Virus record (IMG/VR): IMGVR_UViG_3300032287_003622
Coordinates: 70,933 to 134,932 of that record
Reading direction: 5' to 3' (one strand)
DNA: 64,000 nt
DNA from: a virus
Part shown: positions 33,301-64,000 of the stretch, in pieces
Position numbering within the stretch: the first letter of the stretch is position 1
Layout of the letters: each line of letters starts with the position of its first letter
Notes under the pieces: generated by a model
Database searches by the model: none
Told to the model about the DNA's origin: nothing
What the model saw: the letters and a program-made list of their open reading frames with translations, nothing else
Made by a program: the position numbers and the translations under genes

Positions 33301-36300
33301 AGTGTTGTTGGGTTCGGCCGGGACCGACACCTCCATGTCATTGATGCGTATGGTGTTTTGAGGCACCAGGGCGGGGTTGGCCGCGGTGGTGGTTATAATT
33401 CCATAGACTCTGGATTGATTCACTTGTCGTTGCACCATGCCCGATTGATGCACCTGGCTGACATAGCTGTCCAAGGGAGCTCCTATGTATACACTGCAAT
33501 TGTTGGAGCAGATGTCCAAGGCATACCCAAATTCAGACTCGTCTATGACAGTATTGGCTGTTATTTTTTGCACAAGTTGGAACTGATTGGTTTCAATTTC
33601 TATACTGTCCCCTATGTTCAAAGTCAGTCCAGTGTTGAGAACAATATTTGATCCAACAACTGAATACTGCCCATTGATATATTGGTCGGTATTGGTGAGA
33701 TATTGATTGTTCAAGGTTACTTGTATGGGTTCTACAAATGATCCTGGAATAGCATAGGTCAGTTGACCAGGATTGTCAACAATATATTTGATCACTCCAC
33801 GATCTATGGCATAGACCGCTCCGGCATAGACCACCGGACTACCTTGAGAGTCCAAGGCTGTATCAAAAGGTGCTCCAATTAACACTTGTCGACCATTTTG
33901 ATCAGTGGTTATGCTGGCGCCAAATTTGGCATTGATGTCCACGCCCGAAACAGTGATGGTGTCAATGTATTGCCAATAGGTCCCAGCAGTGGCTCCTATG
34001 ATAGCGCCGGCAGGAGGAACATTTAAAAAAGTCACATTAGGATAACTGAAAATGTAGTCAATGTTGGGACGTTGCAACACTCCGTTCACAGACAAAGTGA
34101 ATGCATCAATGCTGGTGGCAGTGTAAAGAAATTGTGCCAAAGAAAACACAGCAGTGTTGCTGACACCAAATCCAGAAATAGTAAAATCAGTGATGCCTCC
34201 AGATGTAACTTCGGTCACCGTGATTGTTAGATCATTGGCCACGCTGCCAGACGGATCAATCTGCGTGTAGGATACAGTCAGTGTGTCACCGATGTTGTAG
34301 TTGATACCCGGTGATGTGATCGAGACACTGTATTGTCCTCGTGTATTGCTCACTGTGAACACAGCACCAGTGCCAGATCCAGAAGCAAAATCTTGTGTGA
34401 CACCAAAATATATGGCAAAATCCAGTTGCGCAACTTGTTTACGAGCTATGATCACTCGTTGCCCTGCAACAGGAACAAAAGTCAGTTGCACCAAAGTTCC
34501 AGAAATGGTATAATCTCGGAGATAAACACATTCCAAATTATTGACCAACACTACCAACTGTTCTGGCTGTGCCGAATTGATGGCTATCTGCGTGTTGTAA
34601 GTAAAAGTTGCTGTGACGCCATTAGCAACATAAGTTATAATTTGAGTGGGTATGTCAACTCTTCCATAAGCATATACCCGATTACCGTCGGGCGCCCCCA
34701 CGTAGGCCATGCGCTCATCATCTGACACAATCACAGATGCACCAAACCCAATGGCCGAGAAATCAAGATCTGGTGCGGTCAGCAATTGTGTCTGAACAAA
34801 TGCCTGACTTCCTGGTTGCTGATAAAGTATTACCGCATAACCTGCAGCTGAGTTGCTGGCACTGGCTCCGGCCATGGCCCAAGATCTATTGCCAAAGTCA
34901 ACACTGTTGCCAAATCCCTGCGTGCCTGGGGCTGTCAGAGTCAATACCAAACTTTGAGCAAATTGATTGTCTTGATCGACAAAATAGCTGTAAACAGCTC
35001 CTGTGCCAGATAAAGTGTTTGGAGCACCTACCAGCAAGGAGTAATTATCATTGCTCTGCGACACGCTGGAACCAAAATACGAATTGGGATCGAGATTTTC
35101 GGGCTGTATTTGTTGTAATTCTTCAAACGGACTTTGTTTTTCAATGACCTGCCAGTGTCCCGACCCGTCATTGTCTACCCACACTCGGGCTCCAGGTAGC
35201 AAGTCGTTGGCATAAGACAGCTCGGCCACATCGCTGGCCTGGGCGACTCTCATAGACTGCAGATAATACACCAACCCTGTGCCGCTGATCGAAGTTTGAT
35301 TTGAATTGGTAAATGCATACTCAATGACCACAGTATCTATAGCCGGCACACTGATCACTCGATAAACACCATCTACTGCCGAATCAAAATACCTTACAAT
35401 TATCAAATCACCGCGTTCAAGATTAGTGGTTTGTGAAAATTGTGCTTGACTGGTTCCATTTAAGTTGTCAGTCAGTCTGATAAGACGTCCTGGAACCTGG
35501 GCACAACGATATATTGCCCAATCATATCCATTGATTTGTGCAACCCAGATACTTGTGCCATTGCCTATGGTTCCAATGTCTCTGGCAATAGCACTAGGAT
35601 TATTGAGATTGAAAACCGTGATGTCAACATCATTGATATTGACGTATCCAGCCGATGGCAACGCACTATCAGAATTGGTCACGTAGGTAGTAGGTAGTAT
35701 GTCTGTGGAGGGGGTAACATAACTTTCGGCCCAGAGATCTTCGAGCAGAATAGTTTGATTGGCCACGCTGGATTGTCCTGGTTGGATTATCTGCACTGTG
35801 CTGGGATTTCCGTTTAGCAAAGCTTCATTCAATGCTATGTCAAACCAACTGCGATTGGCATTGGCTCCATACGTTCCAACCAATATACCCCAGTTTTCAA
35901 AAATATTGTATTCGCCGATTTCTTTGTTGAAGTTTACTTTGGTAAACAGATCGGTGGCCTGTGTGGTTCCTTTGGTCTTAATAAACTGTTGATAAATCAT
36001 GACCTGGCTGGAACTGCTAAGATCCAGATCAGTCATGTATTGTCTTGGCCTAAATCCGATCAATCCATAGGCCAAAAGATCGTTGTCGTTGTTTAAATTG
36101 GCAGTCTGAGTGTTATAACTGTTGGCAAGTTGTTCAGCCTTGGTTGCCAAATTTTGTAAAAGCCCCTGTTCTATTAGGTCATAGTTGCTCTTATACCAGT
36201 CACCATATTCAAATTTTGCCTTGGGTTGTATGATGTCAATGGCCTGCCAGTAACTGTTTTTGTATAAAACCATGTCACCCTTGGTATACTTGGTATTGGT

Positions 36301-39300
36301 CTGCCAATCAACCACATTGTCTTGGTTGAGTATGAATCCTTGAGCATTAAGCACTCCGTTCCAACCGGTGCTGACACTGGCCATGAGTCTGAGACGATTT
36401 TGTCTTTCTGCTGTGATGGTGTCATAGATCAAGTCATTAAAAATGGTGCGATTGTCCAACACCATCATGTTTTCATAATCGGTATATTTTAGTTGCAAAT
36501 AACTGATGGTTTGACTGCCGGCCGGATCGGGATTCAAGGAAAACACATTGCCTTGGCGACGTATAATCAAATCTCTCGAGTCAAAAGCCTTGCGATTTTG
36601 ATCCAGCAGTAGATTCTCTGGTGTATAAGTCACTATGGAATCTACCACTGCACCAGGACGGAAAGATGTTATTTGCGTGGCCGATGGATTGAGATTGATT
36701 ATAGTGCCTGGTGCCCATCCTTGATTGGCAAAATACAAGAATTCCTGGGCCATCTGTATCCAGTTCAAGGTGTATCCATTTTCTTGCACTGTGAATGACA
36801 ATCCTTGGCTTGCCAAAAACTGTCCATAACTCAACAAAAAGTCCACTACACCGGTAAGATTTGCAAATGTATAACCATACGGTATCTGTGCGACCTTGTT
36901 GGTATAAGAACTAGGAACAGTGACAGTGACATTGCCGGCTGTCAAAGTTTGGCTGGATCCTGCTACCTGGCTGGTCAATATAGAAAAATAAGGGTTGATA
37001 GCACTGTAACCATATACGCTGTAACCGTCTTCAACTACCTCTACAATGACCGCACTGTAATCTAAACGATTGAAAGGTTGATTTTTATACAGCAACAGAT
37101 TGAAGCTTTCGGGCGGCACCAGCAAACTGGTGTTTTGACTTTGAGCGCTGCCTTTTTCTAGATAAACCGCTAGATTTGATTCGGCCACAAACGAGGCGAA
37201 TCTATAGCACAAACGCACATCTATGTTGTCTAAGTCTGTGGTCAAAGCATCGGTGCTGTCTATTCCTAGTTGCTGATTGTAATCAACTATCCAGTCAATA
37301 TAACTGGCCTTGCTGATTCCGTTGCCATAAACTTCTATCTGCTTGGGTTGTATGCGACCACGACCATCATAAAGATATTGGTCAAACTCAGGACTGTATT
37401 TGTACAAATCTCTGTCTGCAAACAGACTGAAAAATTCTGCTGGTCTTGTCAATATCAGCAAGCGCATGACTGCAAAAGGATAGCTGGAACTTGACCACCA
37501 CGAAGCTTCTACCGGTCCACCGTCTCCCACTTTCCAACTGGCAACAAATCCCTGAGGATCGTATGGACCTACCACACTCTGCAACGGAGGCAAAAGATTT
37601 CCTTGATTGTCCACAGGAATAACTTGTGTGAGTCCAGGTCTACGATATTTTGGAATCACATAAGGAGCTACCGGGTCAGCCACCAATCCCTGTTCAAGAT
37701 CACCCCAAAGCACCAAGTTGTCACTGGTGTAAGGCACTGGACCATAGCGATCTGCCCACCAGCTTGGTTCTTCGCTTAAACCCAACATTTCCCAAGGTGT
37801 GGTATTTGGCGAAGTGGTGTCATAGAAATAACGATATATGCCACGCCAGGCTCCCAACAGTGGCTGATTATTGATTCTATTACCGGCCTGACTGTAGTTG
37901 TAGGTAAATTCATTGTTGGCCAGATAAGTTTGTTGCGTATAATCCAGTTTGTTGGCTCCTACCCAGGCCAGAAATTGTTCGCCCAATATCTGATTTATTT
38001 CTTGTTGATTGTAATCGGTAGTGCGGAAAAATCCTGGAATAACATCTTCAGCTACCAAAGGCGGTGGGTTACCATCATTTTTTAAATTGTTATAAATTCT
38101 GGTCTCAAATTCCAACAACACCCGATCTCTGATGTCACCAAATGCTGTGGTAATAGATCCATCATGTCCTTGAATAACCAAAGTTGGATTCACATAATTT
38201 GTGTCATAAAATATCTTTGGTTGATATTTGGGATACAAACCCAGTTTGGTAGGTGTGTTGGGGACAAAATTTCCCACGGTGCTGGTATATTCATTGATTG
38301 TCACGGTAGACCCGACAGCAAAAGGCACCTGCGGTTCAATGGTCAATGTGGGTCCTTCAGTTGACACAACATAATCTGTATCTCGTGTCAGAAGAACATT
38401 GTCTATGTAAACACACAATCCTTGGTAGTTTGATTCGGTATAACTGTAAGTTTGTGTGAGATTGAATGTTCTTGTGGTAACAGGATTGATTACATATGAA
38501 TTGGAAGTGAATGTTGGACTCGTAGGCAACATATCACTCCAGTAAAATGGATTTACGCTGGTTTTGCCAAGATTGATCTGTGATATTGATTCATCCAGCA
38601 GGCGGGACACGGTCCAATTATCGTAGTCAGCTATGCCAAATGTGGTCACCGTGTTTAATAATTGTGTTTTGAATTTGATATATTCAGAACTGTTGTATTG
38701 CAAGGCACCAAAAATGTTATAGTTGGGATCTCGCATGAAATATCCAGTCAAAGTCAAAGGCGAACTTTGCTGTAATATTTGCAAGCCATAAGGTATCACA
38801 TTGCCCAGGTCTCTCACGTTGTTGGGGCCAATGGGAGGTCCGGACAAATCAATAAGATTTTGGGCTATGGTAACATAATGATTGCGTATGGTGCCCAGGC
38901 TGAATTGCTGGCTGTTTTCGTTGAGAGGATTGTTTTGGAGATTGATAGGAACCTGATAAAATCCTTGTTGACTTATCTGATCGCTCAACACTGCCACAAT
39001 GATCTGATCACCGGGCACATAAGTGGTCAAGAGATTGATAGTGGTAGTGTCGGTGCCTACTGTATATTGATAATTATAGGACTCCTGGAATTCTCCATTG
39101 ATAAAAATCTGTATGGCTGGCACTGTGTTATTGTCATTTACAGCAACATCCAGCAACAAAGGACCACCGTCGTAGCTGAACTGAAATTGTTGCCGCACCA
39201 AGCTAGAGGTCACAGCCGTTTGCCAACCTATCTCTCTTACAAAATCAACCCGGTCACGATATTGACGCACAAAACCTGTGCTAAGAGGCACAGTCAGTCC

Positions 39301-41997
39301 TGTTCCTTCTACAGTGTAGTTGAAAGAATCCTTGTAAAAATTGTTGTCAAATACTATGTCCCCTATGTTGCTGAGACTCAGATAAGTGAGGGGGAATCCC
39401 AATACGATATCTGGTACAGCATCTCCAATGGCGTAACTAAACAAGGGGCTACCTGCAAAATCCGTGCTGGGATAAATCGCTCTGTTGCCAAAACTCACAC
39501 CATTTCTATCATAGATGTCAAACAATGGAGGTTGATTGACATTGTTTTTTTGTTGAGTTTTGATCCAATCTACACCGTCATATCTGTATGTGAGTCCTTG
39601 TTCTATCAGGCCACTGAGAACCACAACATTTTGATCGACCAAGGCTGTGCCATCAGTGACTGGTATCAGTGCAATAATGGGTTGAGTTATCAAAGGCGGA
39701 ACTGAATCTGGTGTTACGAACCGCACTTCGTATATGGTTTTACGGACATCTGCATCTAGATCTGCTGCAAATATAATCCTGGTGCCGTCCAGCACTGTGT
39801 AACCATCGGTGCTGTAACCGGTGCTGCCATTGACCACACTTAATGCGTCAGTTTGTCGAAAATCAATGATGTCAACAGGCTGTTTGCTTTGTGTTCCAAA
39901 ATTGAATAACCTGGTGCCACCACGGAATTCCAAAATAGGTCTTTTGGCTCTGAGTTGATTGTCTATTACTGGTTGGGTATTGTTATACAAAGCAGATGCT
40001 GTGATAACGTCGATATGGAACCATCGATTGCTGCGCGACCATGGATTTAGATCCGGCGAATCTCGCGATATGGTTATGTAATCAGGCGTCAAGGGTTGAT
40101 TCAAACTGGCATCATAATTGCCCAAATCATAGGGCGTGGTATCGTAGGGTATTGACGCACTTTTAGTGTAAGTTTCTGGAGTTATGTAATCAGAAGTGGG
40201 CAACAACTGTATGGCAGTTCCGACACCTTGAACATAGTAAGATTTATTCTTATATTGAGTTGGAAAAACATCGCCTCTAAATATTACTTTGAGTCCGTTG
40301 GTAAAAGTCACTCCGTTGGGGCTCACATAGTTTTTTTGACCTATGATTTCTTCGACATTGAGTGTGTCGGCCTGGGTTTGATCAATGATACGTATCTGAC
40401 CAAAAATTTCTGGGTCAGTTCCATCCTGATACCATAAAATATTTTTGATTGCTGTCAACAATGGAATCTGTTCAAAGAAACCAGATTCATTTTTGTACCA
40501 TCCGGTGTTGCTCCACTGATCGCCAAATGCTATTGAAAACTTGTTGAGAGCGTCAACTTGCAAAATACTTTTGAGGCTCATATAGACCCCACCACCGGCA
40601 GCTATTTCATACTGTATCTGCCAAACACTGTATTGCACCGCTGGATCAGTGATAGGGGTTGTCTGATCAAAGGTCACAGAATCAAAGCCACCGGGCCCTG
40701 GAGGATCGCCTGCCGGCAACGGATCAAAAAATGTTGTTTGTTGCCAGCCGCCGGTGACAGGATCTGTGCCTTGATTCATAAACACAATGGTTCTACCGTT
40801 GAGATTGGTAATACCGTCTATGCCGTTGGGATATTGTGTGAAAAAGTTGTCGACGAATTGATTGTTGATTTGATCAAATTGAAGGTCAGTTATCAAATCC
40901 ACAGAACCTATGCTGGGCAGGTCATAATAAAAATTTTGTGCCGTTGACAAAGGCACATCAAAAGTCACTGTTCCAAGATCCTCGCCATTGTTGACGACTC
41001 CCAATACATCTCGACCACTGATGTTTGGAGTGGCTGGAATACGTCCACTTACTCCAGGGTCTGTCTGTATCCAGAATCCAGGGCCATTGCCAGGAGTGCC
41101 ATCCACAATATTGATTTGGCCTTGTAAATTTATTTGCACATCATTGCAATAATACAAGGTATCAGGCGCATCTTGTGGCACAGTAAAAGTAACAAGCCCC
41201 TGCGCACCACCATTGTTGAAAACACCGTTGGAATATATGTTGGTAGTGCCAAGACTGATCTGTGTTTTAATGTAGAAAGACCAATCAAATGTCTGACTGA
41301 GGTTGAAAACATAGGTATTGCCGCGCACCAAAGTAAGAGTGGGGTTTGGCTGATAGTCTATGTTCCAACTACTGGTTCCGTTGTTGGTCACTCTAAAGTT
41401 GACTGTTTCCTTGTCGTTTTGGGCTACATTGAAAGTGTAGCTGCCGCCGCGAACCAGAGTCAATATTGGATTGTTGCCACTTACTCCGGAAAAAGTATAC
41501 ACACCATTTTCTCTGGTCACATCAAAACTGTCGGTCGATGGTATGCCAGTGGCACTTACGTCTACCGCCAGCGGTCCTCCAGGTAACCAAAAATATTGTG
41601 CATAGTTGATCAATTTATCAAAATCAACAAATGGATCCCAGGCGTAATAATCACTAGTGTAGAGTCGTTGAGCATTGTCAACATAAGAACCTTGCATTTG
41701 CAAAGCATCTGTGATTCCCGGATAAGTTATGGCATCAACCACCCGATGAAAATCTTTTGGATCAACCTGGACCACTCCGGGCTCAAGTTGATAGTCCGTT
41801 CTTGTTTTGGTAGGTTCAACAACATAATTGTCGTTGGCATTGACTCCGGGGCCAACTCGCCGACCAATAAATCCTTGCGATTGTGTGAATCTTGGATTTT
41901 GGATCAACTGATCCAGGGTGGCTGACAAAAACTGCTCATTGATGGGAGTTTGAAAAATTTCTGGTAAGAATTCTACACTGCGCACTTGCTTGGCCAT
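27340..41997 (-). CDS. Giant (4885 aa) baseplate wedge-like virion protein with FG-GAP-like repeats
   Basis: Directly follows gp6 (TAATG overlap); multiple FGxS(V/I)...(V/I)GAP repeats; repeated GDGxTxxF / VxVNxxxQ..DY beta domains. Confidence 0.7.
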   Translation of the reverse strand: MAKQVRSVEFLPEIFQTPINEQFLSATLDQLIQNPRFTQSQGFIGRRVGPGVNANDNYVVEPTKTRTDYQLEPGVVQVDPKDFHRVVDAITYPGITDALQMQGSYVDNAQRLYTSDYYAWDPFVDFDKLINYAQYFWLPGGPLAVDVSATGIPSTDSFDVTRENGVYTFSGVSGNNPILTLVRGGSYTFNVAQNDKETVNFRVTNNGTSSWNIDYQPNPTLTLVRGNTYVFNLSQTFDWSFYIKTQISLGTTNIYSNGVFNNGGAQGLVTFTVPQDAPDTLYYCNDVQINLQGQINIVDGTPGNGPGFWIQTDPGVSGRIPATPNISGRDVLGVVNNGEDLGTVTFDVPLSTAQNFYYDLPSIGSVDLITDLQFDQINNQFVDNFFTQYPNGIDGITNLNGRTIVFMNQGTDPVTGGWQQTTFFDPLPAGDPPGPGGFDSVTFDQTTPITDPAVQYSVWQIQYEIAAGGGVYMSLKSILQVDALNKFSIAFGDQWSNTGWYKNESGFFEQIPLLTAIKNILWYQDGTDPEIFGQIRIIDQTQADTLNVEEIIGQKNYVSPNGVTFTNGLKVIFRGDVFPTQYKNKSYYVQGVGTAIQLLPTSDYITPETYTKSASIPYDTTPYDLGNYDASLNQPLTPDYITISRDSPDLNPWSRSNRWFHIDVITASALYNNTQPVIDNQLRAKRPILEFRGGTRLFNFGTQSKQPVDIIDFRQTDALSVVNGSTGYSTDGYTVLDGTRIIFAADLDADVRKTIYEVRFVTPDSVPPLITQPIIALIPVTDGTALVDQNVVVLSGLIEQGLTYRYDGVDWIKTQQKNNVNQPPLFDIYDRNGVSFGNRAIYPSTDFAGSPLFSYAIGDAVPDIVLGFPLTYLSLSNIGDIVFDNNFYKDSFNYTVEGTGLTVPLSTGFVRQYRDRVDFVREIGWQTAVTSSLVRQQFQFSYDGGPLLLDVAVNDNNTVPAIQIFINGEFQESYNYQYTVGTDTTTINLLTTYVPGDQIIVAVLSDQISQQGFYQVPINLQNNPLNENSQQFSLGTIRNHYVTIAQNLIDLSGPPIGPNNVRDLGNVIPYGLQILQQSSPLTLTGYFMRDPNYNIFGALQYNSSEYIKFKTQLLNTVTTFGIADYDNWTVSRLLDESISQINLGKTSVNPFYWSDMLPTSPTFTSNSYVINPVTTRTFNLTQTYSYTESNYQGLCVYIDNVLLTRDTDYVVSTEGPTLTIEPQVPFAVGSTVTINEYTSTVGNFVPNTPTKLGLYPKYQPKIFYDTNYVNPTLVIQGHDGSITTAFGDIRDRVLLEFETRIYNNLKNDGNPPPLVAEDVIPGFFRTTDYNQQEINQILGEQFLAWVGANKLDYTQQTYLANNEFTYNYSQAGNRINNQPLLGAWRGIYRYFYDTTSPNTTPWEMLGLSEEPSWWADRYGPVPYTSDNLVLWGDLEQGLVADPVAPYVIPKYRRPGLTQVIPVDNQGNLLPPLQSVVGPYDPQGFVASWKVGDGGPVEASWWSSSSYPFAVMRLLILTRPAEFFSLFADRDLYKYSPEFDQYLYDGRGRIQPKQIEVYGNGISKASYIDWIVDYNQQLGIDSTDALTTDLDNIDVRLCYRFASFVAESNLAVYLEKGSAQSQNTSLLVPPESFNLLLYKNQPFNRLDYSAVIVEVVEDGYSVYGYSAINPYFSILTSQVAGSSQTLTAGNVTVTVPSSYTNKVAQIPYGYTFANLTGVVDFLLSYGQFLASQGLSFTVQENGYTLNWIQMAQEFLYFANQGWAPGTIINLNPSATQITSFRPGAVVDSIVTYTPENLLLDQNRKAFDSRDLIIRRQGNVFSLNPDPAGSQTISYLQLKYTDYENMMVLDNRTIFNDLIYDTITAERQNRLRLMASVSTGWNGVLNAQGFILNQDNVVDWQTNTKYTKGDMVLYKNSYWQAIDIIQPKAKFEYGDWYKSNYDLIEQGLLQNLATKAEQLANSYNTQTANLNNDNDLLAYGLIGFRPRQYMTDLDLSSSSQVMIYQQFIKTKGTTQATDLFTKVNFNKEIGEYNIFENWGILVGTYGANANRSWFDIALNEALLNGNPSTVQIIQPGQSSVANQTILLEDLWAESYVTPSTDILPTTYVTNSDSALPSAGYVNINDVDITVFNLNNPSAIARDIGTIGNGTSIWVAQINGYDWAIYRCAQVPGRLIRLTDNLNGTSQAQFSQTTNLERGDLIIVRYFDSAVDGVYRVISVPAIDTVVIEYAFTNSNQTSISGTGLVYYLQSMRVAQASDVAELSYANDLLPGARVWVDNDGSGHWQVIEKQSPFEELQQIQPENLDPNSYFGSSVSQSNDNYSLLVGAPNTLSGTGAVYSYFVDQDNQFAQSLVLTLTAPGTQGFGNSVDFGNRSWAMAGASASNSAAGYAVILYQQPGSQAFVQTQLLTAPDLDFSAIGFGASVIVSDDERMAYVGAPDGNRVYAYGRVDIPTQIITYVANGVTATFTYNTQIAINSAQPEQLVVLVNNLECVYLRDYTISGTLVQLTFVPVAGQRVIIARKQVAQLDFAIYFGVTQDFASGSGTGAVFTVSNTRGQYSVSITSPGINYNIGDTLTVSYTQIDPSGSVANDLTITVTEVTSGGITDFTISGFGVSNTAVFSLAQFLYTATSIDAFTLSVNGVLQRPNIDYIFSYPNVTFLNVPPAGAIIGATAGTYWQYIDTITVSGVDINAKFGASITTDQNGRQVLIGAPFDTALDSQGSPVVYAGAVYAIDRGVIKYIVDNPGQLTYAIPGSFVEPIQVTLNNQYLTNTDQYINGQYSVVGSNIVLNTGLTLNIGDSIEIETNQFQLVQKITANTVIDESEFGYALDICSNNCSVYIGAPLDSYVSQVHQSGMVQRQVNQSRVYGIITTTAANPALVPQNTIRINDMEVSVPAEPNNTVAGLVGAINSAQIPNVVASLVPNVILQGTGSRQVFDIGNIYSTASSYTPIVYVNNVLQILNIDYTYNNSTQQISFVSAPAARARIEVVAGRMTISVINANAAQEFNKLTVLPGISSNDSAEISAFYDLGFVTYAYTQSISSPNPTDYAYFGSSVNVNTGSINLVIGAPNGEVYEATTFDNNLTYFDDRSTTYFNTIANSGVVYTFDYLPSADSSLENPGKFVFGQQVYKNSVQTNDQFGHSVNYRRGRLVVGTPGDEINNSDTNYGSVTVIDNAGDAPVWTVIYNQLPMVDVNLLNSVYSYDKLLTNTQTYFDYIDPLQGKILGVARRNIDYIGAVDPASYNAGLIHNVGTSWGSAHLGQIWWDTNRVRFIDANQDNLIYASRRWGQVFPGSEVDVYQWIESSVPPVNYTGSGTPFSTVSYTVSSLINDQGILVTNYYFWVRGLTTVATEAGKTLSVSAIASYIQNPLGSGLPYIAALSANALALYNANGLLSANDTILHVEYDRQILGGNSNIHTEYEFITDGKPSSFLNANLYRKFIDSFCGIDTLGNAVPDPTLSPGMRYGVQFRPRQSMFVDRLLALKNYLQYVNKILAQFPISETKSFSLLNSAQPIPAANTGAWNLEVPNLEILAYQNIAAVPLGYKYLVMSDASLNGLWSIYTVTDISGGQRELSLTLVQNYYTPAYWNYINWYQPGYNSSITPIATVANTAGLQTLSLQTASVGSSVKVAANGQGKFEIYVRTDTGWNRVGLQDGTIEFSAKLWDYALGRFGFDAEVFDSQFFDQEPTIETRQIIRAINEELLIDELLIERNRALILMFQFIYTELNSPEWLVKTSYINVNHVIRGLLPIQLYQPDNQTFVLDYLNEVKPYHVQNLEFNLVYDGLDRYPGALTDYDVPAYYNTSLESPQFTSPILLPYTYSDSINQSFVSDAPANAQIWLERPWSDWFNNYLLSIQAVEVLDQGSGYTTAPTVSVSGECVRQAQMTAIINSAGKVVAITIDDPGEGYTTTAVLTLVGGGGTGATARAQMGNNLVRSFKTTIKYDRYQYRSTIVDWEPNVVYVAGTRVRWSNLVWSANSTLSGPVFIPSDWTRVSAASLSGVDRTMGFYLPGPNMPGLSLPLLVDGVDYPGVQVDAPDFNQNTGYDVGNFDINPFDNLSVDREGRPTYDYGILDVQYASSYLDLYLGTRPTDINVDGGAYIDTFSSHAPEELIPGSEFDTLDFRVYTTPGSDWTGGGHGFPAGNRRYVYDSANPTVSFAGIIDLPFTVQVFNATLGIAIEPVSYDWANYEVTLGLTETDGDIINVYVTGVGGGNQLYNRTYLGNEVGDTITVPFPYNSIYEFLIYNGETRLEPGVDYTWASQTQTSTRITFVNTYGASDRINLCTLGYAPPEQTTHSWSLPVFQTEISDGSLSIPLVNSLQGTNPVNLIVVSNGARLRPSEGMEHMGDGTTVTFDLPMNGGYSQGLISDNDVSVYVDNQPTIQGINYQVDAWDGSSARTITFFDAPAMGSVILISVRTKAQYWILGDELVFQPANGYSPTPGDIIDIVTWNDTSQQGLLTQVFVGEGESPYHTYDTSHPISNPDRILVTLDGEWLFAGLNFVTVGETKIRITGLPITSNSVIAITCLTQSVVPGAMAFRIFQDMRGLQATYRITSETTTSITAPVSITDDVIYVKDASALNTPDFEINSWGVVTINAERIMYRERNILNNTISSLLRGTAGTAVAAHESGATVYDMSRENLLPTLYQDYINSNTFMADGATSTYVTDIVVDNRPLVYLGGIVQVTVGGNLQDPSTYVVTQVEPVAIEFVAIPALDQQVIVTVLYLDSTEQQQVFTATGSSAKFVTSLDIGLQEQASNTYVLDDFNPVTVTFNTAPFPGLCVYIRTQQGAEDQFYFTFADGSTTTFVTNIDLSIPVRVLIGGIEQDPSTYLVTSLDLVTVQFAQSIPAGLEVVIYVRQGISWYQPGPTTASDGVPLQDTNTQPARFLRGL

Positions 41998-58719: not shown

Positions 58720-60482
58720 TGATCCAAATAAAAAATTTAACTGTTCGTAACTTTATGAGTGTGGGTAACACTACCCAGGCCATTGACTTTGACCGCAAAG
58801 ACCTAACCTTGGTGCTGGGAGAAAACCTGGACATGGGCGGAGATGGTTCCAGGAACGGCACAGGCAAGACCACTATCATCAACGCACTCAGCTATGCCTT
58901 GTACGGACAGGCCTTGAGCAACATACGCAAAGACAACCTGGTCAATAAAACCAACGGCAAGAACATGTTGGTCAGTCTAGAATTTGTAGTGGGCGCACAA
59001 GAATACAAGATCGAACGTGGTCGAAAACCCAATGTGTTGCGTTTTTATGTCAACAACCAGGCACAAAAAATCACCGACGAAGCACAAGGTGACAGCCGAG
59101 AAACACAGGACGCCATTGAGCATGTGCTGGGGCTCAGTCACGATATGTTCAAACATATCTTGGCGTTGAACACTTATACCGAACCGTTCTTGAGTCTTAA
59201 AGCCAACGATCAGCGTACTATCATTGAACAACTGTTGGGCATAACCATGCTCAGCGAACGAGCCGACCGTATCAAAGAACACAACCGGCAGACCAAAGAG
59301 GGCATACAACAAGAAGAATTCCGCATACGTGCTGTGCAGGAAGCCAACAAGCGCATAGAAGAACAGATCGAAGCCTTGCGACGCAGACAAACATTATGGA
59401 CTACCCGACATGAAGAAGAGATTGCAAAACTTACGACCGCGCTCGAAGAGCTCAAGAAGATTGACATTGAAGCCGAGATACAGGCACACAAGGCACACAA
59501 AGTATGGGATCAGAAGCGCAAGGACCTTAACGACTTGGCTGGACAAATCTCCCGCACGAAGCTTGATAAAGATCGCGAGAACAAAAGCATTGAGAAGCTT
59601 GTCAAAGAGATTACGACTCTTGAAAATCACACATGTCACACCTGTGGGCAGGCTTTCCATGACAGTAAGCACCAACAGGTCCTGGCGGGTAAGCAGACTG
59701 ATCTGGTGGGAGCGCGAGCGGCGTGCCAGGAACATACACAGCTCTTATCAGAACTTGAGACTGCCCACACAGCCTTGGGCACGCTAGGAAAACCTCCGGT
59801 CATGTTCTATGATCGAGAAGAAGATGCCATACAGCATAGAAGCAGTTTGTCTGCGTTAGAAAAGCAGTTGGAAAGCAAACAGGTCGAAACGGATCCTTAT
59901 GAAGAACAGATTGCAGACATGCAAGGTCAGGCCCTGCAAGCGGTAAACTATGACACTCTCAATGAACTTACCCGATTGCAGGAACATCAAGATTTCTTGC
60001 TCAAACTCCTGACCAGCAAGGACAGTTTTGTTCGCAAAAAAATCATTGAACAGAATTTGAGTTATCTCAATGCACGACTCACACACTACTTGGATAGGAT
60101 TGGTTTGCCACACACCGTGGTATTCCAAAACGATCTCTCAGTCAGCATTGAAGAACTGGGTCGTGAACTGGATTTTGACAACTTGAGTCGTGGCGAACGC
60201 AATCGTTTGATTCTCAGCATGAGCTGGGCCTTCCGCGATGTGTTTGAAAGTCTGTATCAACCCATCAATGTGTTGTTCATAGATGAGATGATTGACTCGG
60301 GCTTGGACACACAAGGTGTGGAAAACAGTCTGGCCTTGCTCAAACACATGAGTCGTGAGCGGCACAAGAGTATTTGGCTGGTATCGCACAGAGACGAGTT
60401 GGCCGGACGTGTGGAAAACATACTCAAGGTGGTCAAGGAAGGCGGATTTACTACCTACAACACGGATATCGAAATTGCGTAG
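58719..60482 (+). CDS. Recombination ATPase subunit, gp46 / SbcC / Rad50
   Basis: NFMSVGN, Walker A NGTGKT, zinc hook CHTC, signature LSRGE, Walker B LFIDE, VSH. Confidence 0.95.
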   Translation: MIQIKNLTVRNFMSVGNTTQAIDFDRKDLTLVLGENLDMGGDGSRNGTGKTTIINALSYALYGQALSNIRKDNLVNKTNGKNMLVSLEFVVGAQEYKIERGRKPNVLRFYVNNQAQKITDEAQGDSRETQDAIEHVLGLSHDMFKHILALNTYTEPFLSLKANDQRTIIEQLLGITMLSERADRIKEHNRQTKEGIQQEEFRIRAVQEANKRIEEQIEALRRRQTLWTTRHEEEIAKLTTALEELKKIDIEAEIQAHKAHKVWDQKRKDLNDLAGQISRTKLDKDRENKSIEKLVKEITTLENHTCHTCGQAFHDSKHQQVLAGKQTDLVGARAACQEHTQLLSELETAHTALGTLGKPPVMFYDREEDAIQHRSSLSALEKQLESKQVETDPYEEQIADMQGQALQAVNYDTLNELTRLQEHQDFLLKLLTSKDSFVRKKIIEQNLSYLNARLTHYLDRIGLPHTVVFQNDLSVSIEELGRELDFDNLSRGERNRLILSMSWAFRDVFESLYQPINVLFIDEMIDSGLDTQGVENSLALLKHMSRERHKSIWLVSHRDELAGRVENILKVVKEGGFTTYNTDIEIA

Positions 60483-61341
60483 AATACGAGTATTACACAT
60501 TGAACCCACAGACGTCTGTCAGGCCGCATGTCCTATGTGCGCCAGAGAGACTGATACTAAATTTAGAAAAGATCAAAAACATCACTTGCGTGTGGAGAAA
60601 ATACAACAGCATTTTAGTGACCGAGTGATTGGCAATCTTGACAAGATGTTCATGTGCGGCAATTACGGAGATCCGGCTGCTGGATACTACACCATGGACA
60701 TCTACCGATATTTTAGAAAAGTCAATTCCGACATTGTGTTGGGGATGAACACCAACGGTGCTGTGCAAAGTACATTTTTTTGGCATGCCTTGGGCGGCCT
60801 GTTCAATCAGCCCAAAGATTATTGTGTGTTCAGCATTGATGGGTTGGAGGACACCAATTCGATATATAGAAAAAATGTCAATTGGGACAAGCTCATGGCC
60901 AATGCACAAGCGTTTATTGCGGCCGGAGGAAGTGCCCATTGGGACATGCTGGTCTACAAGCATAATCAGCATCAAGTAGATGAATGTGAACGCCTCGCCC
61001 GAGACATGGGCTTCAAATGGTTCCGTGCTAAGATTTCCAAACGTGGGTTCACAGACAGATTAGAATTTCCTATTGGTTGGAAGGAACCCGTAATCACACA
61101 GGGGCCAATACAGTGTCATGCTCAACAGGAACGTAGCATGTATATAGATGCACAAGGTCGAGTCAGTGCCTGTTGTTGGCTGGGTGCCACACAAAGTGAT
61201 TTTGTCAAAGACGATTTGGCCACAGTAAAACAATCTTGGAAAACAGAAACTCCACACCCAACATGTAAAAAAACTTGTTCTACTAGCAAATCAAAAACAA
61301 GTTTTACAAACCAGTGGCAACGGGAGGTTAATCTTGTTTGA
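60475..61341 (+). CDS. Radical SAM protein with C-terminal twitch/SPASM-like Cys cluster (start revised to TTG 60475)
   Basis: CQAACPMC; CGNYGDP; NTNG; FSIDG; C..GRVSACC..CKKTC. Confidence 0.85.
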   Translation: MRRIRVLHIEPTDVCQAACPMCARETDTKFRKDQKHHLRVEKIQQHFSDRVIGNLDKMFMCGNYGDPAAGYYTMDIYRYFRKVNSDIVLGMNTNGAVQSTFFWHALGGLFNQPKDYCVFSIDGLEDTNSIYRKNVNWDKLMANAQAFIAAGGSAHWDMLVYKHNQHQVDECERLARDMGFKWFRAKISKRGFTDRLEFPIGWKEPVITQGPIQCHAQQERSMYIDAQGRVSACCWLGATQSDFVKDDLATVKQSWKTETPHPTCKKTCSTSKSKTSFTNQWQREVNLV

Positions 61342-62446
61342 TTACAACATCATAGACGAATATCAACTTGAAATAACTTCTTACTGCAATGCTGCCTGTC
61401 CTCAGTGTCCACGAAACAACAACGGCGAAGGTGTAAACCCTAGAATGCCTCTTTGCCATTTAGGTAGAGATGTCATTGACCGAGCTTTTCCTACCGAAAT
61501 GTGTGCTCGTCTCCGTCAAATATTTTTTTGTGGCAGCTACGGTGATCCTATCATGCACCCTGATTTCTTGGATATTCTAAGAGATTTTAGGAAAAAAAAT
61601 CCTACCCTGTGGTTGTATTTTCATACCAATGGCGGTGCTCACGATGCGGATTATTGGACAGAGGTTGCTAGAATCATGGCAGGATATGGACAAATTGACT
61701 TTGGTATAGACGGCCTAGAGGACACTTTACATCTGTACCGCCGTAATGTAAAATACAGCCGGGTCATCGACAATGCCCAGGCATTTATACGTGCAGGAGG
61801 TCGAGCGCAATGGAACTTTATTGTGTTTCGACACAACGAACATCAAGTAGAACAGGTCCGACAGCTTGGAGAACAAATGGGATTTTTCAATGTATTGATT
61901 AGAAAAACTGGAAGATTTTTCAATCATAGAACTGTGGAAGAAATGTCTTCGTGGCCGGTGTCCAACAAATATGATCTAGAACCACCTTCGCAGGATGAAT
62001 ATCGCAATCAAAGCATGTTGTTTCTTCCTGAACTAAAAAAACAATACAGCAACATCAAAGATTATTTTGACACCACACCCATACGTTGTGATGCCTTGAT
62101 AGGACCCAAAGTGGTAGTCAATGCCGAAGGATTGGTTTTGCCTTGTAACTTTTTCAATCATAATTTGTATGATCGTAGATTTTACGAGCCCGGAGTATTG
62201 CCCGAGTCCAACGAATTAAGCACTATCAACGGACAAAATCAAGTTCGGGCATTTTTAGAGAGTTACACGCTGGACAGTTTTAATATACATTTGCACAGTC
62301 TCAAACAAATATTTGAAAACCCCATGTGGTCTGATTTAGTTGCCAGCTGGAATAAGACTTTAGCTCAAGGCAGATTGTTTGAATGTGCCATGACCTGTGG
62401 TTCAAAAATTACCAAGGTGTGGGATCAAGGAGGAAGCAAAAGATGA
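61334..62446 (+). CDS. Radical SAM protein with C-terminal twitch/SPASM-like Cys cluster
   Basis: CNAACPQC; CGSYGDP; HTNG; FGIDG; C..GLVLPC..CAMTC; paralog of the preceding gene. Confidence 0.88.
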   Translation: MFDYNIIDEYQLEITSYCNAACPQCPRNNNGEGVNPRMPLCHLGRDVIDRAFPTEMCARLRQIFFCGSYGDPIMHPDFLDILRDFRKKNPTLWLYFHTNGGAHDADYWTEVARIMAGYGQIDFGIDGLEDTLHLYRRNVKYSRVIDNAQAFIRAGGRAQWNFIVFRHNEHQVEQVRQLGEQMGFFNVLIRKTGRFFNHRTVEEMSSWPVSNKYDLEPPSQDEYRNQSMLFLPELKKQYSNIKDYFDTTPIRCDALIGPKVVVNAEGLVLPCNFFNHNLYDRRFYEPGVLPESNELSTINGQNQVRAFLESYTLDSFNIHLHSLKQIFENPMWSDLVASWNKTLAQGRLFECAMTCGSKITKVWDQGGSKR

Positions 62447-63033
62447 AATATATGATTACAGGTGGCAACCGTGGTCTTGGCCAGGCCCTGGCCAGGCACT
62501 TCAACGGTGACAGTTTCAGTCGTAGCTGTGGTCATGATATAACCAAAGACTCCGATCGTGCCTGGATGGCCAACAAAAGTCTGGAATATGATGTATTTGT
62601 TAACAATGCTTTTGATGGTCCGTTCCAGGAATCATGGGCGGATTTTGGTCAGATAAAAATTTTATATGATGTAGCAAATTGTTGGCGGCACAACAACAAG
62701 CAGGGATGGATCATCAACATCGGAAGTGTAGGTACTCAAAATATTGTTGCGCCAGATCCAGATTTTGAAACCTATAGGATTTCTAAACTGGCTTTGAAAT
62801 CACATAGCCAACAATGGACTCGTGCATTCAAAGAAAATCGTGTAGCGTTCAAAACCACCCTCCTGACCTTGGATCGGCTGGACACTGAACTCACACGCAA
62901 CAGACCTACTTGGACTGGAAATGGACACAACCTGCATGATATCTGTCACTATATAGAATTGATTACAAACGGTGCAAATAATACTTGTATAGAAGAAATT
63001 ATAGCCTGGGTGAATTTTGATCATAAACAATAG
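62443..63033 (+). CDS. Short-chain dehydrogenase/reductase (start revised to 62443)
   Basis: AGGAGG RBS and ATGA overlap; MITGGNRGLG, VNNA, INIGS, YRISK. Confidence 0.8.
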   Translation: MKYMITGGNRGLGQALARHFNGDSFSRSCGHDITKDSDRAWMANKSLEYDVFVNNAFDGPFQESWADFGQIKILYDVANCWRHNNKQGWIINIGSVGTQNIVAPDPDFETYRISKLALKSHSQQWTRAFKENRVAFKTTLLTLDRLDTELTRNRPTWTGNGHNLHDICHYIELITNGANNTCIEEIIAWVNFDHKQ

Positions 63034-63036
63034 TCC

Positions 63037-63474
63037 ATGTCATGGCTATTCGAAAGCAAAGCAATTGAAACCTTACCCGAAGATTGCGTGGGTTTTGTTT
63101 ATTTGATCACAAATAACACCACCGGAAGAAAGTATATTGGAAAAAAATTAGCAAAATTTAGCAAGACAACATATAAGGTAGTGAAACTCAAGAACGGCAA
63201 CAAGAAACGCAAGAAAATACGTGGCAAAATCGAATCAGACTGGCAGACATACTACGGCAGCAACGAACAACTCAACAAAGACGTAGAACGCTTAGGCGCA
63301 GGCAACTTCACTCGAGAAATATTATACTACTGTAGGTCCAAGGCCGAATGTAGCTACATAGAAGCTCGCGAACAATTCTCAAGACGTGTATTAGAGTCGG
63401 ATGACTGGTACAATGGACACATTCAGGTGCGTGTGCATGGTAGCCATATCCGCAAATTAAACGACTCTGTTTGA
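63037..63474 (+). CDS. Stand-alone GIY-YIG family nuclease
   Basis: GFVYLITNNTTGRKYIGKK, YYGS, FTREIL, E(AREQ), YNGHI; no appended DNA-binding domain. Confidence 0.75.
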   Translation: MSWLFESKAIETLPEDCVGFVYLITNNTTGRKYIGKKLAKFSKTTYKVVKLKNGNKKRKKIRGKIESDWQTYYGSNEQLNKDVERLGAGNFTREILYYCRSKAECSYIEAREQFSRRVLESDDWYNGHIQVRVHGSHIRKLNDSV

Positions 63475-63795
63475 TCTGGGCACCCAGATCCACAAGGAGG
63501 AACGGTGAGATACCCGGTCCAGATGAGCTTGTGTGTCAACGGCAATTGCTAACTTAAGGCAACAAATGGTAGGGGCTCTGTGAAAAAGCGACAACCCCAG
63601 CTCATAGGACTTGGTTCTTCTCGGGTCACTAGGGTTCCGTTGATATGTGAAGCTTGAGTAGGGGGTACCGGTCAACCGCCTCCGCGTCGAAAGACAATCT
63701 CATTAGAATGAAGTGACTGTGCTACTCGGATAATGCAGATCATTGTTCACCGTGCATACGGTGAATTGTGACCACTTAATCTGGATAATACGGAA
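63473..63795 (+). ncRNA. Candidate large structured non-coding RNA, family not recognised
   Basis: Nested helices found by eye: 63518-24/63779-85; about 18 bp 63525-42/63637-55 with G.U pairs; 63656-61/63722-27; hairpins 63473-90, 63669-78, 63686-95 (GAAA loop), 63746-65. Confidence 0.6.
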
Positions 63796-63803
63796 AGACA
63801 ATG

Positions 63804-63844
63804 ATTGATGAGCGACAGCGAATCAATAGATCTCATTGAGATCT
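63804..63844. other. Two tandem hairpins
   Basis: ATTGAT-GA-GC-GACA-GC-GA-ATCAAT and AGATCTC-ATT-GAGATCT. Confidence 0.55.
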
Positions 63845-64000
63845 CAGAGCTGATCAGGAAAGTCTCGAAAGAGTGCGTGCTGGATGTTGCCACTCACAAA
63901 CTGATTGAAACTTTTGTGTTTGGTTTCTAGTTCGCCTTCAAGTGGTGCTACTCTGCGAAATGCTTCATCCATTTGGCCCATGTCGCGGAACTCCATTAAA
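63844..64000 (-). CDS. 3' end of a small protein, DUF6614-like (5' end beyond window)
   Basis: Read by hand: ..LMEFRDMGQMDEAFRRVAPLEGELETKHKSFNQFVSGNIQHALFRDFPDQL*; family call is from memory of the ALxRDFPD C-terminus. Confidence 0.6.
   Translation of the reverse strand, partial: LMEFRDMGQMDEAFRRVAPLEGELETKHKSFNQFVSGNIQHALFRDFPDQL

What the first reader, a model, noticed from the sequence alone, without database searches (positions are those of the whole stretch)
63473..63795. Unrecognised multi-domain structured RNA in the only long non-coding gap of the window
Seen: the window is otherwise wall-to-wall coding, but 63475-63843 is about 370 nt with no credible ORF and is full of nested complementarity. 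An outer helix TCCAGAT/ATCTGGA (63518-24/63779-85) closes a junction. One arm is a helix of about 18 bp, GAGCTTGTGTGTCAACGG/CCGTTGATATGTG-AAGCTT (63525-42/63637-55), enclosing TTGCT/GGCAA and GGGG/CCCC stems. A second arm is GAGTAG/CTACTC (63656-61/63722-27), enclosing GGGGG/CCTCC with a CGGT/ACCG hairpin, GTC-GAAA-GAC and TCAT/ATGA. A third arm is TTCACCGT-GCAT-ACGGTGAA (63746-65). The long helix has five G.U pairs that work only on the + strand, which points to RNA-level selection. GTCACT (63625-30) can pair with AGTGAC (63712-17) or GTGACC (63768-73), a possible pseudoknot or switch. GGATAATRC occurs twice (63728, 63783), each at the 3' end of a helix. Inference: a ribozyme-sized phage ncRNA that I cannot match to tRNA, tmRNA, RNase P or group I/II introns.
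Basis: partly seen in the sequence, partly recalled or inferred. Interest (0 to 1): 0.85.

Follow-up and report, generated by a model that had tools for sequence, protein, structure and literature searches.

The report
Twin-box structured RNA behind phage nuclease
The gene-free stretch behind a small nuclease gene of this uncultured T4-like lake phage encodes a real, knotted non-coding RNA of about 320-380 bases that carries the same 7-letter word twice, is related to a little-known catalogued RNA motif, and has no known job.

Summary
The gap 63475-63843 is real and is the window's only long ORF-free stretch. It encodes a + strand structured RNA. On 47 distinct relatives, my 90-pair model has 52 pairs changed on both sides, which 0 of 500 shuffles reach. 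Its 18-bp helix, its GAGTAG/CTACTC arm and its GTCACT pseudoknot do not hold. The supported pseudoknot joins the P5 loop to 63706-12.

Rfam finds nothing in the window, even at E<=10. The 3' half is shared with RNAs at the same position in related phages, whose 5' third is a full-length Polynucleobacter-1 motif (RF01718). The window RNA is therefore a new variant of that poorly known kind.

GGATAAT (63728, 63783) is a "twin box". The two copies are identical in every relative although 11-12 different words occur. In 13 of 13 independent changes at position 1, both copies changed together. No complementary partner was found nearby.

A small nuclease gene lies upstream in 101 of 101 evaluable loci: GIY-YIG in 97, PD-(D/E)XK in 4.

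Function is unknown. This scan has already noted the same family on other DNA.

The parts
63037..63474 (+). Small stand-alone GIY-YIG nuclease gene (145 aa, catalytic domain only). Its stop codon lies inside hairpin P0.
   Evidence: Pfam PF19835 SegE_GIY-YIG, E 8.6e-33, covering profile positions 1-123 of 123. There is one copy in the 135-kb contig. The GIY...YIG, R, E and N-type residues are at least 95% conserved in 125 relatives. A relative lies upstream of the RNA in 97 of 101 evaluable loci.
63473..63490 (+). P0 hairpin (63473-79 / 63484-90) at the 5' edge of the RNA
   Evidence: 6 of 7 pairs have changes on both sides. 69.6% of cells are paired; the alignment is ragged here.
63491..63533 (+). 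P1 (63491-96 / 63528-33), which encloses hairpin P2 (63499-505 / 63514-20, loop TGAGATAC)
   Evidence: P1 has 3 of 6 pairs changed on both sides; its two innermost pairs form in only 11-12 of 47 sequences. P2 has 6 of 7 pairs changed on both sides.
63537..63642 (+). Possible long-range helix CAACGG/CCGTTG (63537-42 / 63637-42) that closes the P3-P4-P5 domain
   Evidence: 75.9% of cells are paired and no pair is changed on both sides. C540-G639 occurs in only 1 of 47 sequences; the other 46 have A.G. The helix is inferred, not shown.
63546..63562 (+). P3 hairpin (63546-50 / 63558-62)
   Evidence: 4 of 5 pairs changed on both sides.
63572..63598 (+). P4/P4a hairpin (63572-75 / 63595-98 and 63579-80 / 63592-93) with a GAAAAAG loop
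   Evidence: 4 of 6 pairs changed on both sides; 99.5-100% of cells paired.
63605..63631 (+). P5 hairpin (63605-13 / 63622-31, A63628 bulged). Its loop forms the pseudoknot.
   Evidence: 4 of 9 pairs changed on both sides; 94.7% of cells paired.
63615..63712 (+). Pseudoknot PK1: P5 loop 63615-20 pairs with 63706-08 and 63710-12 (T63709 bulged)
   Evidence: 6 of 6 pairs changed on both sides; 92.9% of cells paired. Duplex energy of matched sequences is -7.31 against -5.10 for permuted ones, z = -10.5, n = 47. The same pairing is present in RF01718-type relatives.
63655..63702 (+). P6 (63655-58 / 63699-702), which encloses P7/P7a (63661-65 / 79-83 and 63669-71 / 76-78; the invariant GGTACCGGTCAACCGCC) and P8 (63686-88 / 93-95)
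   Evidence: The closing pair of P6 is A-U in 24 sequences and U-A in 19. The first pair of P7 is G-C in 34 and A-U in 13. P8 has 3 of 3 pairs changed on both sides. The core motif is invariant in 36 sequences and served as the search pattern.
63713..63744 (+). Hairpin Pb1, which presents ACTC + box 1 in its loop (window stem AGTGA.../...TCATT plus TGC/GCA)
   Evidence: Duplex energy between the flanks is -5.42 for matched sequences against -4.39 for permuted ones, z = -9.3, n = 138.
63728..63734 (+). Twin box, copy 1: GGATAAT
   Evidence: It is identical to copy 2 in 137 of 141 distinct cores when read by alignment columns; the other 4 are misaligned and are identical by pattern search. Identity is confined to these 7 positions.
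63746..63765 (+). P9 hairpin between the two boxes
   Evidence: 4 of 8 pairs changed on both sides; 98.1% of cells paired.
63783..63789 (+). Twin box, copy 2: GGATAAT, preceded by the invariant ATCT, with no local hairpin
   Evidence: The duplex test on its flanks gives z = -1.2.
63804..63827 (+). P10 hairpin with a GA/GAA internal loop and a covarying 2-bp inner stem
   Evidence: 6 of 6 plus 2 of 2 pairs changed on both sides.
63828..63844 (+). P11 hairpin AGATCTC-ATT-GAGATCT. It is the likely 3' end or a two-way terminator between the converging genes.
   Evidence: Mutual-information pairs 63831-34 / 63838-41. The alignment is poor here, and the consensus terminator scan found no U-tract site.

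Best explanation
Shown. 63473-63844 encodes a stable, intricately folded + strand non-coding RNA. It has about 14 supported helices and one pseudoknot. It is the window-type variant of a large phage RNA family.

The 3' core of that family runs: P5-loop pseudoknot, invariant GGUACCGGUCAACCGCC hairpin, box 1, P9, box 2, P10. In sibling RNAs this core follows the Rfam motif Polynucleobacter-1.

The RNA always lies directly downstream of a small nuclease gene on the same strand, and the nuclease stop codon sits inside its first hairpin.

Inferred. The RNA is made as the 3' part of the nuclease transcript and acts as an RNA in its own right. Its working surface is the 7-nt word shown twice: once in the loop of hairpin Pb1 and once in a single-stranded linker.

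The word is free to change, yet both copies always change together, and identity stops exactly at the 7 positions. The most economical reading is that one nucleic-acid partner reads both copies by base pairing, as a two-fold seed. That partner is not encoded within the RNA or its few-kb flanks, and its identity is unknown.
For: Structure. 90 pairs were tested on 47 distinct sequences. 87.4% of cells are paired, against 78.1% in shuffles. 52 pairs changed on both sides, which 0 of 500 shuffles reach. The covariation score is 0.269, against 0.117 for shuffles and 0.03-0.06 for slid controls. RNAalifold independently found 19 compensated pairs.

Strand. 354 G.U cells against 69 A.C cells.

Not coding. 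The conserved - strand frame is open for only 25-119 aa, and only 6 of 40 sequences have a Met upstream of it.

Family. An nhmmer profile of the window type finds the 3' core in 184 hits over the loci fetched by then (L002-L200) plus the window. Among distinct RNAs, 85 are RF01718-type, 49 window-type, 9 cut at the 5' end and 1 other. RF01718 is full length in 16 of 20 loci and in 5 of 6 loci.

Twin box. The copies are identical in 137 of 141 cores read by alignment columns, and the other 4 are misaligned. 11 words occur. In independent sister pairs both copies changed together in 13 of 13 (position 1), 6 of 6 (position 5) and 5 of 5 (position 7). The flanks at -3 to -1 are never identical, 0 of 138. 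Spacing varies from 47 to 61 nt, which argues against phased DNA sites.

Nuclease link. 97 of 101 evaluable loci found through the RNA motif have GIY-YIG upstream, and the other 4 have a PD-(D/E)XK gene. 76 of 76 evaluable GIY-YIG loci have the RNA. No sigma-70-like promoter lies between the gene and the RNA.
Against: No partner was found. An exact complement of the box occurs in 4 of 135 RNAs. There are 88 complement sites in 1.34 Mb of flanks against 82 expected. Wobble-tolerant hits fall on an invariant UUGUUU that does not track the box. The word is not depleted in the 135-kb contig.

Transcription, RNA ends and stability are not shown. RNA-library contigs cannot give strand or ends.

In L140 an opposite-strand gene lies between the nuclease and the RNA, so co-transcription is not universal.

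A protein reader is not excluded.

Earlier notes of this scan report copies in bacterial islands without the nuclease. I could not test that.
Confidence: 0.5

Rival explanations
1. Nuclease-RNA particle. The RNA is the partner of the upstream domain-less nuclease. It would guide, scaffold, restrain or be processed by that enzyme, in the manner of an OMEGA omega-RNA or a type III antitoxin RNA. The two boxes would be its address or its cutting sites.
For: A small nuclease gene of one of two unrelated folds lies upstream on the same strand in 101 of 101 evaluable loci found through the RNA motif. 76 of 76 evaluable GIY-YIG loci carry the RNA. The GIY-YIG protein is a bare catalytic domain with no DNA-binding domain. 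It stays intact down to 55% identity. The stop codon lies inside P0.
Against: No GIY-YIG column tracks the box: the best mutual information is 0.22-0.33 bit against about 1 bit of label entropy. The PD-(D/E)XK family often lacks the RNA: 54 of 75 evaluable loci have no detectable copy, and at least 31 of those have a gene within 170 nt downstream. Other genes sit between nuclease and RNA in 10 of 101 loci and in L140. The word is not avoided in the genome. No binding test was possible.
Confidence: 0.2
2. The RNA is independent of the nucleases, which are free-standing homing endonucleases. Like T4 seg and mob genes, they park beside a very conserved target, here the RNA gene.
For: The Pfam family is SegE-type and PHROGs label its relatives 'homing endonuclease'. 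Two unrelated nuclease folds occupy exactly the same slot just 5' of the conserved leader TGTTTGR. L140 keeps the last 12 nt or so of a lost GIY-YIG gene. The genes upstream of the nuclease vary widely.
Against: The slot is occupied in 101 of 101 evaluable loci and never empty. All copies that are not cut by a contig end are full length, and the catalytic residues are conserved. The contig holds only one copy. The protein has no DNA-binding domain. This idea also does not explain the twin box.
Confidence: 0.15
3. The two identical boxes are donor and acceptor sites for a strand transfer or re-alignment at the RNA's own DNA. This could be an R-loop or primer that starts replication or recombination beside the gp46/gp47 genes.
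For: Identity that is confined to a short word yet free to vary is what such mechanisms require; the examples I have in mind are hepadnavirus DR1/DR2 and coronavirus TRS, recalled and not checked. The locus lies next to SbcCD-like gp46/gp47 and a structure-specific-type nuclease.
Against: No reverse transcriptase or primase is encoded at the locus. No natural variant has one or three units: spacing is always 47-61 nt with two boxes. No joints were seen in RNA or DNA contigs (weak).
Confidence: 0.08
4. The element works at the DNA level, as iterons, operators or a packaging site, and is not an RNA.
For: Direct repeats that evolve in concert are typical of iterons (recalled).
Against: G.U against A.C counts are 354 to 69, which favours one strand. 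There are dozens of compensated pairs and a pseudoknot. Box spacing varies by 14 nt.
Confidence: 0.03
5. The region is a decayed or small protein-coding gene, or the remnant of a group I intron.
For: A 72-aa ORF lies on the - strand at 63457-63675. GIY-YIG genes often live inside group I introns (recalled).
Against: The - strand frame is open for only 25-119 aa and mostly lacks a start codon. Runs of more than 20 nt are invariant. No Rfam intron match appears even at E<=10. The downstream gene converges, so there are no exons.
Confidence: 0.01

Closest known systems
Polynucleobacter-1 RNA motif (Rfam RF01718; Weinberg et al. 2010, PMC2864571; I saw only its table row: RNA 'y', cis-regulatory 'y', switch '?', Burkholderiales and fresh water/estuary)
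   Same: In related phages, a full-length RF01718 match (69-119 bits) sits at the same place, directly behind the GIY-YIG gene. It is followed by the same 3' core, the same P5-loop pseudoknot and the same twin boxes as in the window. P5 of the window (CGGGTCACTAGGG) resembles model positions of about 44-56.
   Different: The window's first 100 nt or so (P0-P3) give no RF01718 hit even at E<=10. The Rfam model covers only 141 nt, which is about a third of the full RNA, and it does not include the twin boxes. Its function is unknown. It is listed as probably cis-regulatory, whereas here the RNA lies at the 3' end of a gene and faces a converging gene.
Omega-RNAs of OMEGA nucleases (TnpB, IscB/HEARO)
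   Same: A structured RNA of a few hundred nt is encoded next to a small nuclease gene and is probably made from the same transcript.
   Different: There is no Rfam HEARO hit. The nucleases here are GIY-YIG or PD-(D/E)XK, not RuvC/HNH. There are no transposon ends and no long guide, only two 7-nt words. No evidence of guiding was found.
Large ornate bacterial and phage ncRNAs of unknown function (ROOL, GOLLD, raiA, OLE)
   Same: Size, many helices, a pseudoknot, residence in phages and an unknown role.
   Different: The window matches none of these Rfam families. Twin identical words are not a described feature of those RNAs, as far as I recall.
   Same: Two short direct repeats whose sequence may drift but which must stay identical to each other.
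   Different: Those systems work through a replicase that switches templates. No such enzyme or product is seen here.

Membership tests
Polynucleobacter-1 RNA (Rfam RF01718) | Match to the Rfam covariance model at or above its gathering score of 37 bits | tested here: not met
   The window gives no match at gathering thresholds. 63300-64000 gives none at E<=10.
Polynucleobacter-1 RNA (Rfam RF01718) | Homology to bona fide members outside the modelled 141 nt (same locus, shared 3' core) | tested here: met
   The window-type profile aligns to positions of about 150-313 in loci that carry RF01718, with E 1e-8 to 1e-16. RF01718 is found in 16 of 20 and in 5 of 6 such loci.
Twin-box phage RNA (working name used in this scan; not catalogued) | Two identical 7-nt words, after ACTC and after ATCT, flanking a hairpin | tested here: met
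   GGATAAT at 63728 and 63783 around P9.
Twin-box phage RNA (working name used in this scan; not catalogued) | Invariant bulged hairpin GGTAYMGGWCAACCGCC | tested here: met
   63665-63681. It is invariant in alignment A1 and served as the search pattern.
Twin-box phage RNA (working name used in this scan; not catalogued) | Pseudoknot between a hairpin loop and the strand 5' of the first GTGAC | tested here: met
   6 of 6 pairs covary; z = -10.5.
Twin-box phage RNA (working name used in this scan; not catalogued) | Small nuclease gene upstream on the same strand | tested here: met
   GIY-YIG gene at 63037-63474. 101 of 101 evaluable loci have such a gene.
Group I intron | Match to the Rfam intron model, and flanking exons of one gene on the same strand | tested here: not met
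   No hit at E<=10. The downstream gene is on the opposite strand.
tRNA / tmRNA | Detected by ARAGORN or Rfam | tested here: not met
   0 genes found in the window; no Rfam hit.
OMEGA omega-RNA (HEARO and relatives) | Rfam match, and an adjacent TnpB/IscB-type gene | tested here: not met
   No Rfam hit. The neighbour is a GIY-YIG gene.
Self-cleaving ribozyme | Site-specific self-cleavage | not testable with these tools
   No known ribozyme family matched. Catalysis needs a bench assay.

The most novel reading that the evidence does not exclude
The RNA programs the bare-bones nuclease encoded just upstream. The two identical 7-nt words would act as a double address that brings a GIY-YIG or PD-(D/E)XK catalytic domain to a nucleic-acid target carrying the complementary word twice. 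This would be an RNA-directed nuclease system built on folds not known to use guides.
Probability: 0.12. Interest if true: 0.95.

Novelty: new variant of a known kind. Interest (0 to 1): 0.7.

Why it matters
Large, knotted non-coding RNAs with conserved tertiary architecture are rare, and each has led to new biochemistry. It shows that the orphan Rfam motif Polynucleobacter-1 is only the first third of a much larger RNA that comes with at least two or three interchangeable 5' domains.

Two features give concrete handles for experiments. First, a 7-nt word is kept identical in two places through at least 13 independent changes, which points to an unidentified reader that works by matching. Second, the RNA always lies behind a small nuclease gene of either of two folds. 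If the two are linked, this would be a new kind of RNA-nuclease partnership. If they are not, it is still a new class of phage RNA gene.

Tried and rejected
Similarity searches. Distant blastn of 63440-63860 against the phage collection (INPHARED) found no match. Sequence search of the PDB found nothing significant: the GIY-YIG protein scored only E 0.18 against 3r3p, and the PD-(D/E)XK protein found none.

Partner searches, all negative.
- Exact complement of the box inside the RNA: 4 of 135.
- Complement in the flanks: 88 sites against 82 expected.
- Wobble complement: the cluster at -170 is the invariant UUGUUU of RF01718-type RNAs and does not follow the box.
- Inverted-repeat target ATTATCC...GGATAAT in the window: 0.
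- Genome-wide avoidance of the word: none, 6 sites against 7.6 expected and 4 against 7.8.
- A 10-nt complement at G000:67053 lies inside an epimerase-like ORF, so I took it as chance.
- Pairing between the stretches that follow the two boxes, or between pre-box 2 and post-box 2: no signal.

A switch in which a central GTCA pairs with either GTGAC: rejected. 86 of 138 RNAs, mostly RF01718-type, have both TGACs and no central GTCA.

GIY-YIG residues that co-vary with the box: none convincing.

Bacterial copies. The core pattern in 185,579 species genomes gave 13 stretches. Only 1 is a true copy (L202, a 1.7-kb contig of a Flavobacteriales MAG), and 12 are chance matches. This narrow pattern does not test the bacterial islands reported by earlier notes.

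RNA libraries. Four metatranscriptome runs (X15, X16, X19, X20; each held 0.06-0.08 of the sampled words) were laid at 85% likeness or more. Short contigs of relatives cover parts of 63472-63790 in 3 of 4 runs, and nothing covers 63791-63900. These are contigs from libraries that may contain DNA. They give no strand, ends or level, so I use them neither for nor against expression.

The correct register (63624-29 with 63768-73) was not counted.

The supplementary files of Weinberg et al. 2010, which describe Polynucleobacter-1, were closed. They may bear on its gene context in bacteria.

Searches for prior print: 'Polynucleobacter-1' is found in 1 paper. 'GIY-YIG' with 'structured RNA', 'phage' and 'noncoding RNA' listed nothing on this RNA among the 20 papers shown (titles and abstract starts only).
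Full report
WHAT IS THERE. The window is the last 64 kb of a 134,932-bp IMG/VR viral contig that CheckV rates 39% complete. It carries SbcD/SbcC-like gp47/gp46, baseplate wedge and baseplate hub genes, so it is a T4-like myovirus. Relatives sit on contigs of 343-347 kb.

A 145-aa gene at 63037-63474 (+) is a bare SegE-type GIY-YIG catalytic domain (PF19835, E 8.6e-33, whole profile). A DUF6614 gene on the - strand ends at 63844. Between them lie 369 nt without a credible ORF. By a crude test, 63475-63904 is the only stretch of 150 nt or more in the window that no ORF of 100 aa or more covers.

Rfam (4227 families) finds nothing in the window at gathering thresholds, and nothing in 63300-64000 at E<=10. 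ARAGORN finds nothing. Folding energy alone is unremarkable: z = -2.15 on the + strand and -2.38 on the - strand.

IT IS A REAL STRUCTURED RNA. The GIY-YIG protein has at least 596 relatives in IMG/VR. 48 of the 80 best loci showed blastn similarity to the gap. A profile search then found it in 70 of 80.

On 47 distinct window-type sequences (alignment A3) I tested a model of 90 pairs in 17 helices.
- 87.4% of cells are paired, against 78.1% in shuffles.
- 52 pairs changed on both sides, which 0 of 500 shuffles reach.
- The covariation score is 0.269, against 0.117 for shuffles and 0.03-0.06 when partners are slid by 1-3 columns.

RNAalifold had independently given 61 pairs, 19 of them compensated. 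G.U cells outnumber A.C cells 354 to 69, so the + strand folds. A conserved-looking - strand frame is open for only 25-119 aa, and only 6 of 40 sequences have a Met ahead of it, so it is not a gene.

THE FOLD, IN WINDOW COORDINATES.
- P0: 63473-79 / 84-90. It overlaps the nuclease stop codon.
- P1: 63491-96 / 63528-33. It encloses P2, 63499-505 / 514-20.
- P3: 63546-50 / 58-62.
- P4 and P4a: 63572-75 / 95-98 and 63579-80 / 92-93.
- P5: 63605-13 / 22-31.
- Pseudoknot PK1: P5 loop 63615-20 with 63706-12. All 6 pairs covary, and the matched-against-permuted duplex test gives z = -10.5.
- P6: 63655-58 / 699-702. It encloses the invariant bulged hairpin P7/P7a and P8.
- Pb1: a hairpin around box 1 (z = -9.3).
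- P9: 63746-53 / 58-65.
- P10: 63804-09 / 22-27, with a GA/GAA internal loop.
- P11: 63828-44.

Its 18-bp helix is not supported: it does no better than shuffles, and its C540-G639 pair exists only in this window. The outer half of that helix competes with the covarying P1. Of GAGTAG/CTACTC only GAGT/ACTC is conserved, and it clashes with P6. GTCA/TGAC fails where P5 is compensated. The outer helix 63518-24/63779-85 is 90.6% paired but weakly supported, and it overlaps P2.

WHAT IT IS RELATED TO. After seeing conservation and covariation, I queried the scan's notebook. It pointed to Polynucleobacter-1 (RF01718), and I tested that lead.
- In 16 of 20 related loci and in 5 of 6 further loci, a full-length RF01718 match of 69-119 bits lies directly behind the GIY-YIG gene.
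- That match is followed by the same 3' core that the window-type profile detects, at profile positions of about 150-313.
- Among distinct RNAs, 85 are RF01718-type, 49 window-type, 9 cut at the 5' end and 1 other.
- L033 has a third kind of 5' end.
- Both main types share the A-rich P4-like element, the PK1 pseudoknot, the CCGUUG strand and everything 3' of it.

So the Rfam motif is the first third of a larger RNA. The window holds a variant whose first 100 nt or so are different.

In print I found only the table row of Weinberg et al. 2010 (PMC2864571; passages). A full-text search for the name found no other paper.

THE TWIN BOX. GGATAAT occurs at 63728 and 63783.
- Across 141 distinct cores, the two aligned 7-mers are identical in 137. 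The other 4 are misaligned and are identical by pattern search.
- 11 words occur, and L262 adds a twelfth, AAATGAG.
- Identity covers exactly 7 positions. The three bases before the boxes (CTC against TCT) are never alike, 0 of 138.
- On a tree of the core built without the box columns, independent sister pairs that differ in box 1 show the same change in box 2 in 13 of 13 (position 1, p = 0.0002), 6 of 6 (position 5) and 5 of 5 (position 7). The 4 misaligned rows were dropped from that test.
- Spacing between the boxes varies from 47 to 61 nt.
- Box 1 sits in a hairpin loop. Box 2 sits in a linker with no local hairpin.
- I found no complementary partner in the RNA, in the flanks or in the 135-kb contig, and the word is not avoided in the genome.

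THE NUCLEASE NEIGHBOUR. I looked at loci found through the RNA motif alone.
- 87 have the GIY-YIG gene adjacent and 10 have it within 2.5 kb on the same strand. 11 are cut by a contig end, and 4 lack it.
- All 4 that lack it carry a PD-(D/E)XK nuclease (PF24608) instead. In 3 it lies about 34 nt from the projected RNA start, and in 1 it lies 1.2 kb away.
- Occupancy is therefore 101 of 101.
- Conversely, 76 of 76 evaluable GIY-YIG loci have the RNA.
- The PD-(D/E)XK family is wider. Of 75 evaluable loci, 21 have the RNA by my detectors, 2 more (L262, L269) by eye, and at least 31 have a gene within 170 nt downstream.
- No GIY-YIG residue tracks the box.
- The contig has one GIY-YIG gene and one copy of the RNA.

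HOW IT MOST LIKELY WORKS. Shown: a conserved tertiary-structured RNA gene with two exposed identical words, tied to the 3' side of a nuclease gene. Inferred: it is made with, or right after, the nuclease message and acts through the two words.

Because the words are free to vary but must match, I think a base-pairing reader is more likely than a protein reader. I give the composite explanation about 0.5.

The rivals are:
- a nuclease-RNA particle (0.2);
- homing endonucleases parked beside a conserved RNA gene (0.15), weakened by the 100% occupancy and the missing DNA-binding domain;
- a strand-transfer or origin function (0.08);
- a DNA-level element (0.03);
- coding sequence or an intron remnant (0.01).

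Expression could not be settled. RNA-library contigs of relatives touch the region in 3 of 4 runs but give no strand or ends.

NOVELTY. This scan has already reported the same family on other DNA, and those notes gave me the RF01718 lead and the name 'twin box'. Judged on its merits, it is a new variant of a known but barely described kind. Its function is open and it has two unusual, testable features.

Noticed in passing
window 60355-63033: Two radical-SAM genes (PF04055) and a short-chain-dehydrogenase-like gene lie between gp46 and the GIY-YIG gene. This cassette differs from locus to locus in relatives.
   Followed up: partly
window 27340-41997 (-): One ORF of 4885 aa, followed by a 1134-aa baseplate wedge gene.
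   Followed up: no
L134:603-674 (-): A match to the Rfam family freshwater-2 RNA (RF02980, 55.2 bits; gathering score 49.9) on the same phage contig as a twin-box RNA.
   Followed up: no
window 63804-63827 and all relatives: Hairpin P10 keeps a GA...GAA internal loop around a covarying 2-bp stem (GC/GC, AC/GT, GT/AC) in every 5'-domain type. It looks like a protein-binding or tertiary-contact motif.
   Followed up: partly
L033:3404-3930: A third kind of 5' domain: no RF01718 hit and no window-type profile hit. It still has a twin box ACATGAA around a hairpin, behind a GIY-YIG gene.
   Followed up: partly
L262 and L269, about 360-420 nt after the PD-(D/E)XK gene: A divergent copy of the RNA that my profiles missed. 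It has a new box word, AAATGAG, and the core GAGGTAACGGCCAACCGCCTC.
   Followed up: partly
L258 and L277, 0-820 nt after the PD-(D/E)XK gene: ORF-free gaps of 816-823 nt that share CAGGGCAACCGGT and GTGGTAGTGCT...AGCACTACCATGGC hairpins. About 20 such loci exist. This may be another structured RNA behind the same nuclease family.
   Followed up: no
L140:8262-8285 (- strand): The last 12 nt or so of the GIY-YIG reading frame (GACTCTGTTTGA) are kept in front of P0 although the gene itself is absent. The leader TGTTTGR is also kept behind PD-(D/E)XK genes.
   Followed up: partly
window 63518-63527; L002, L004, L036 and others: The 5' strand of the possible outer helix looks like a third, degenerate box. 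It reads TCC-AGATGAG in the window and is exactly TCC-GGATAAT in several relatives, but it does not follow the twin boxes elsewhere.
   Followed up: partly
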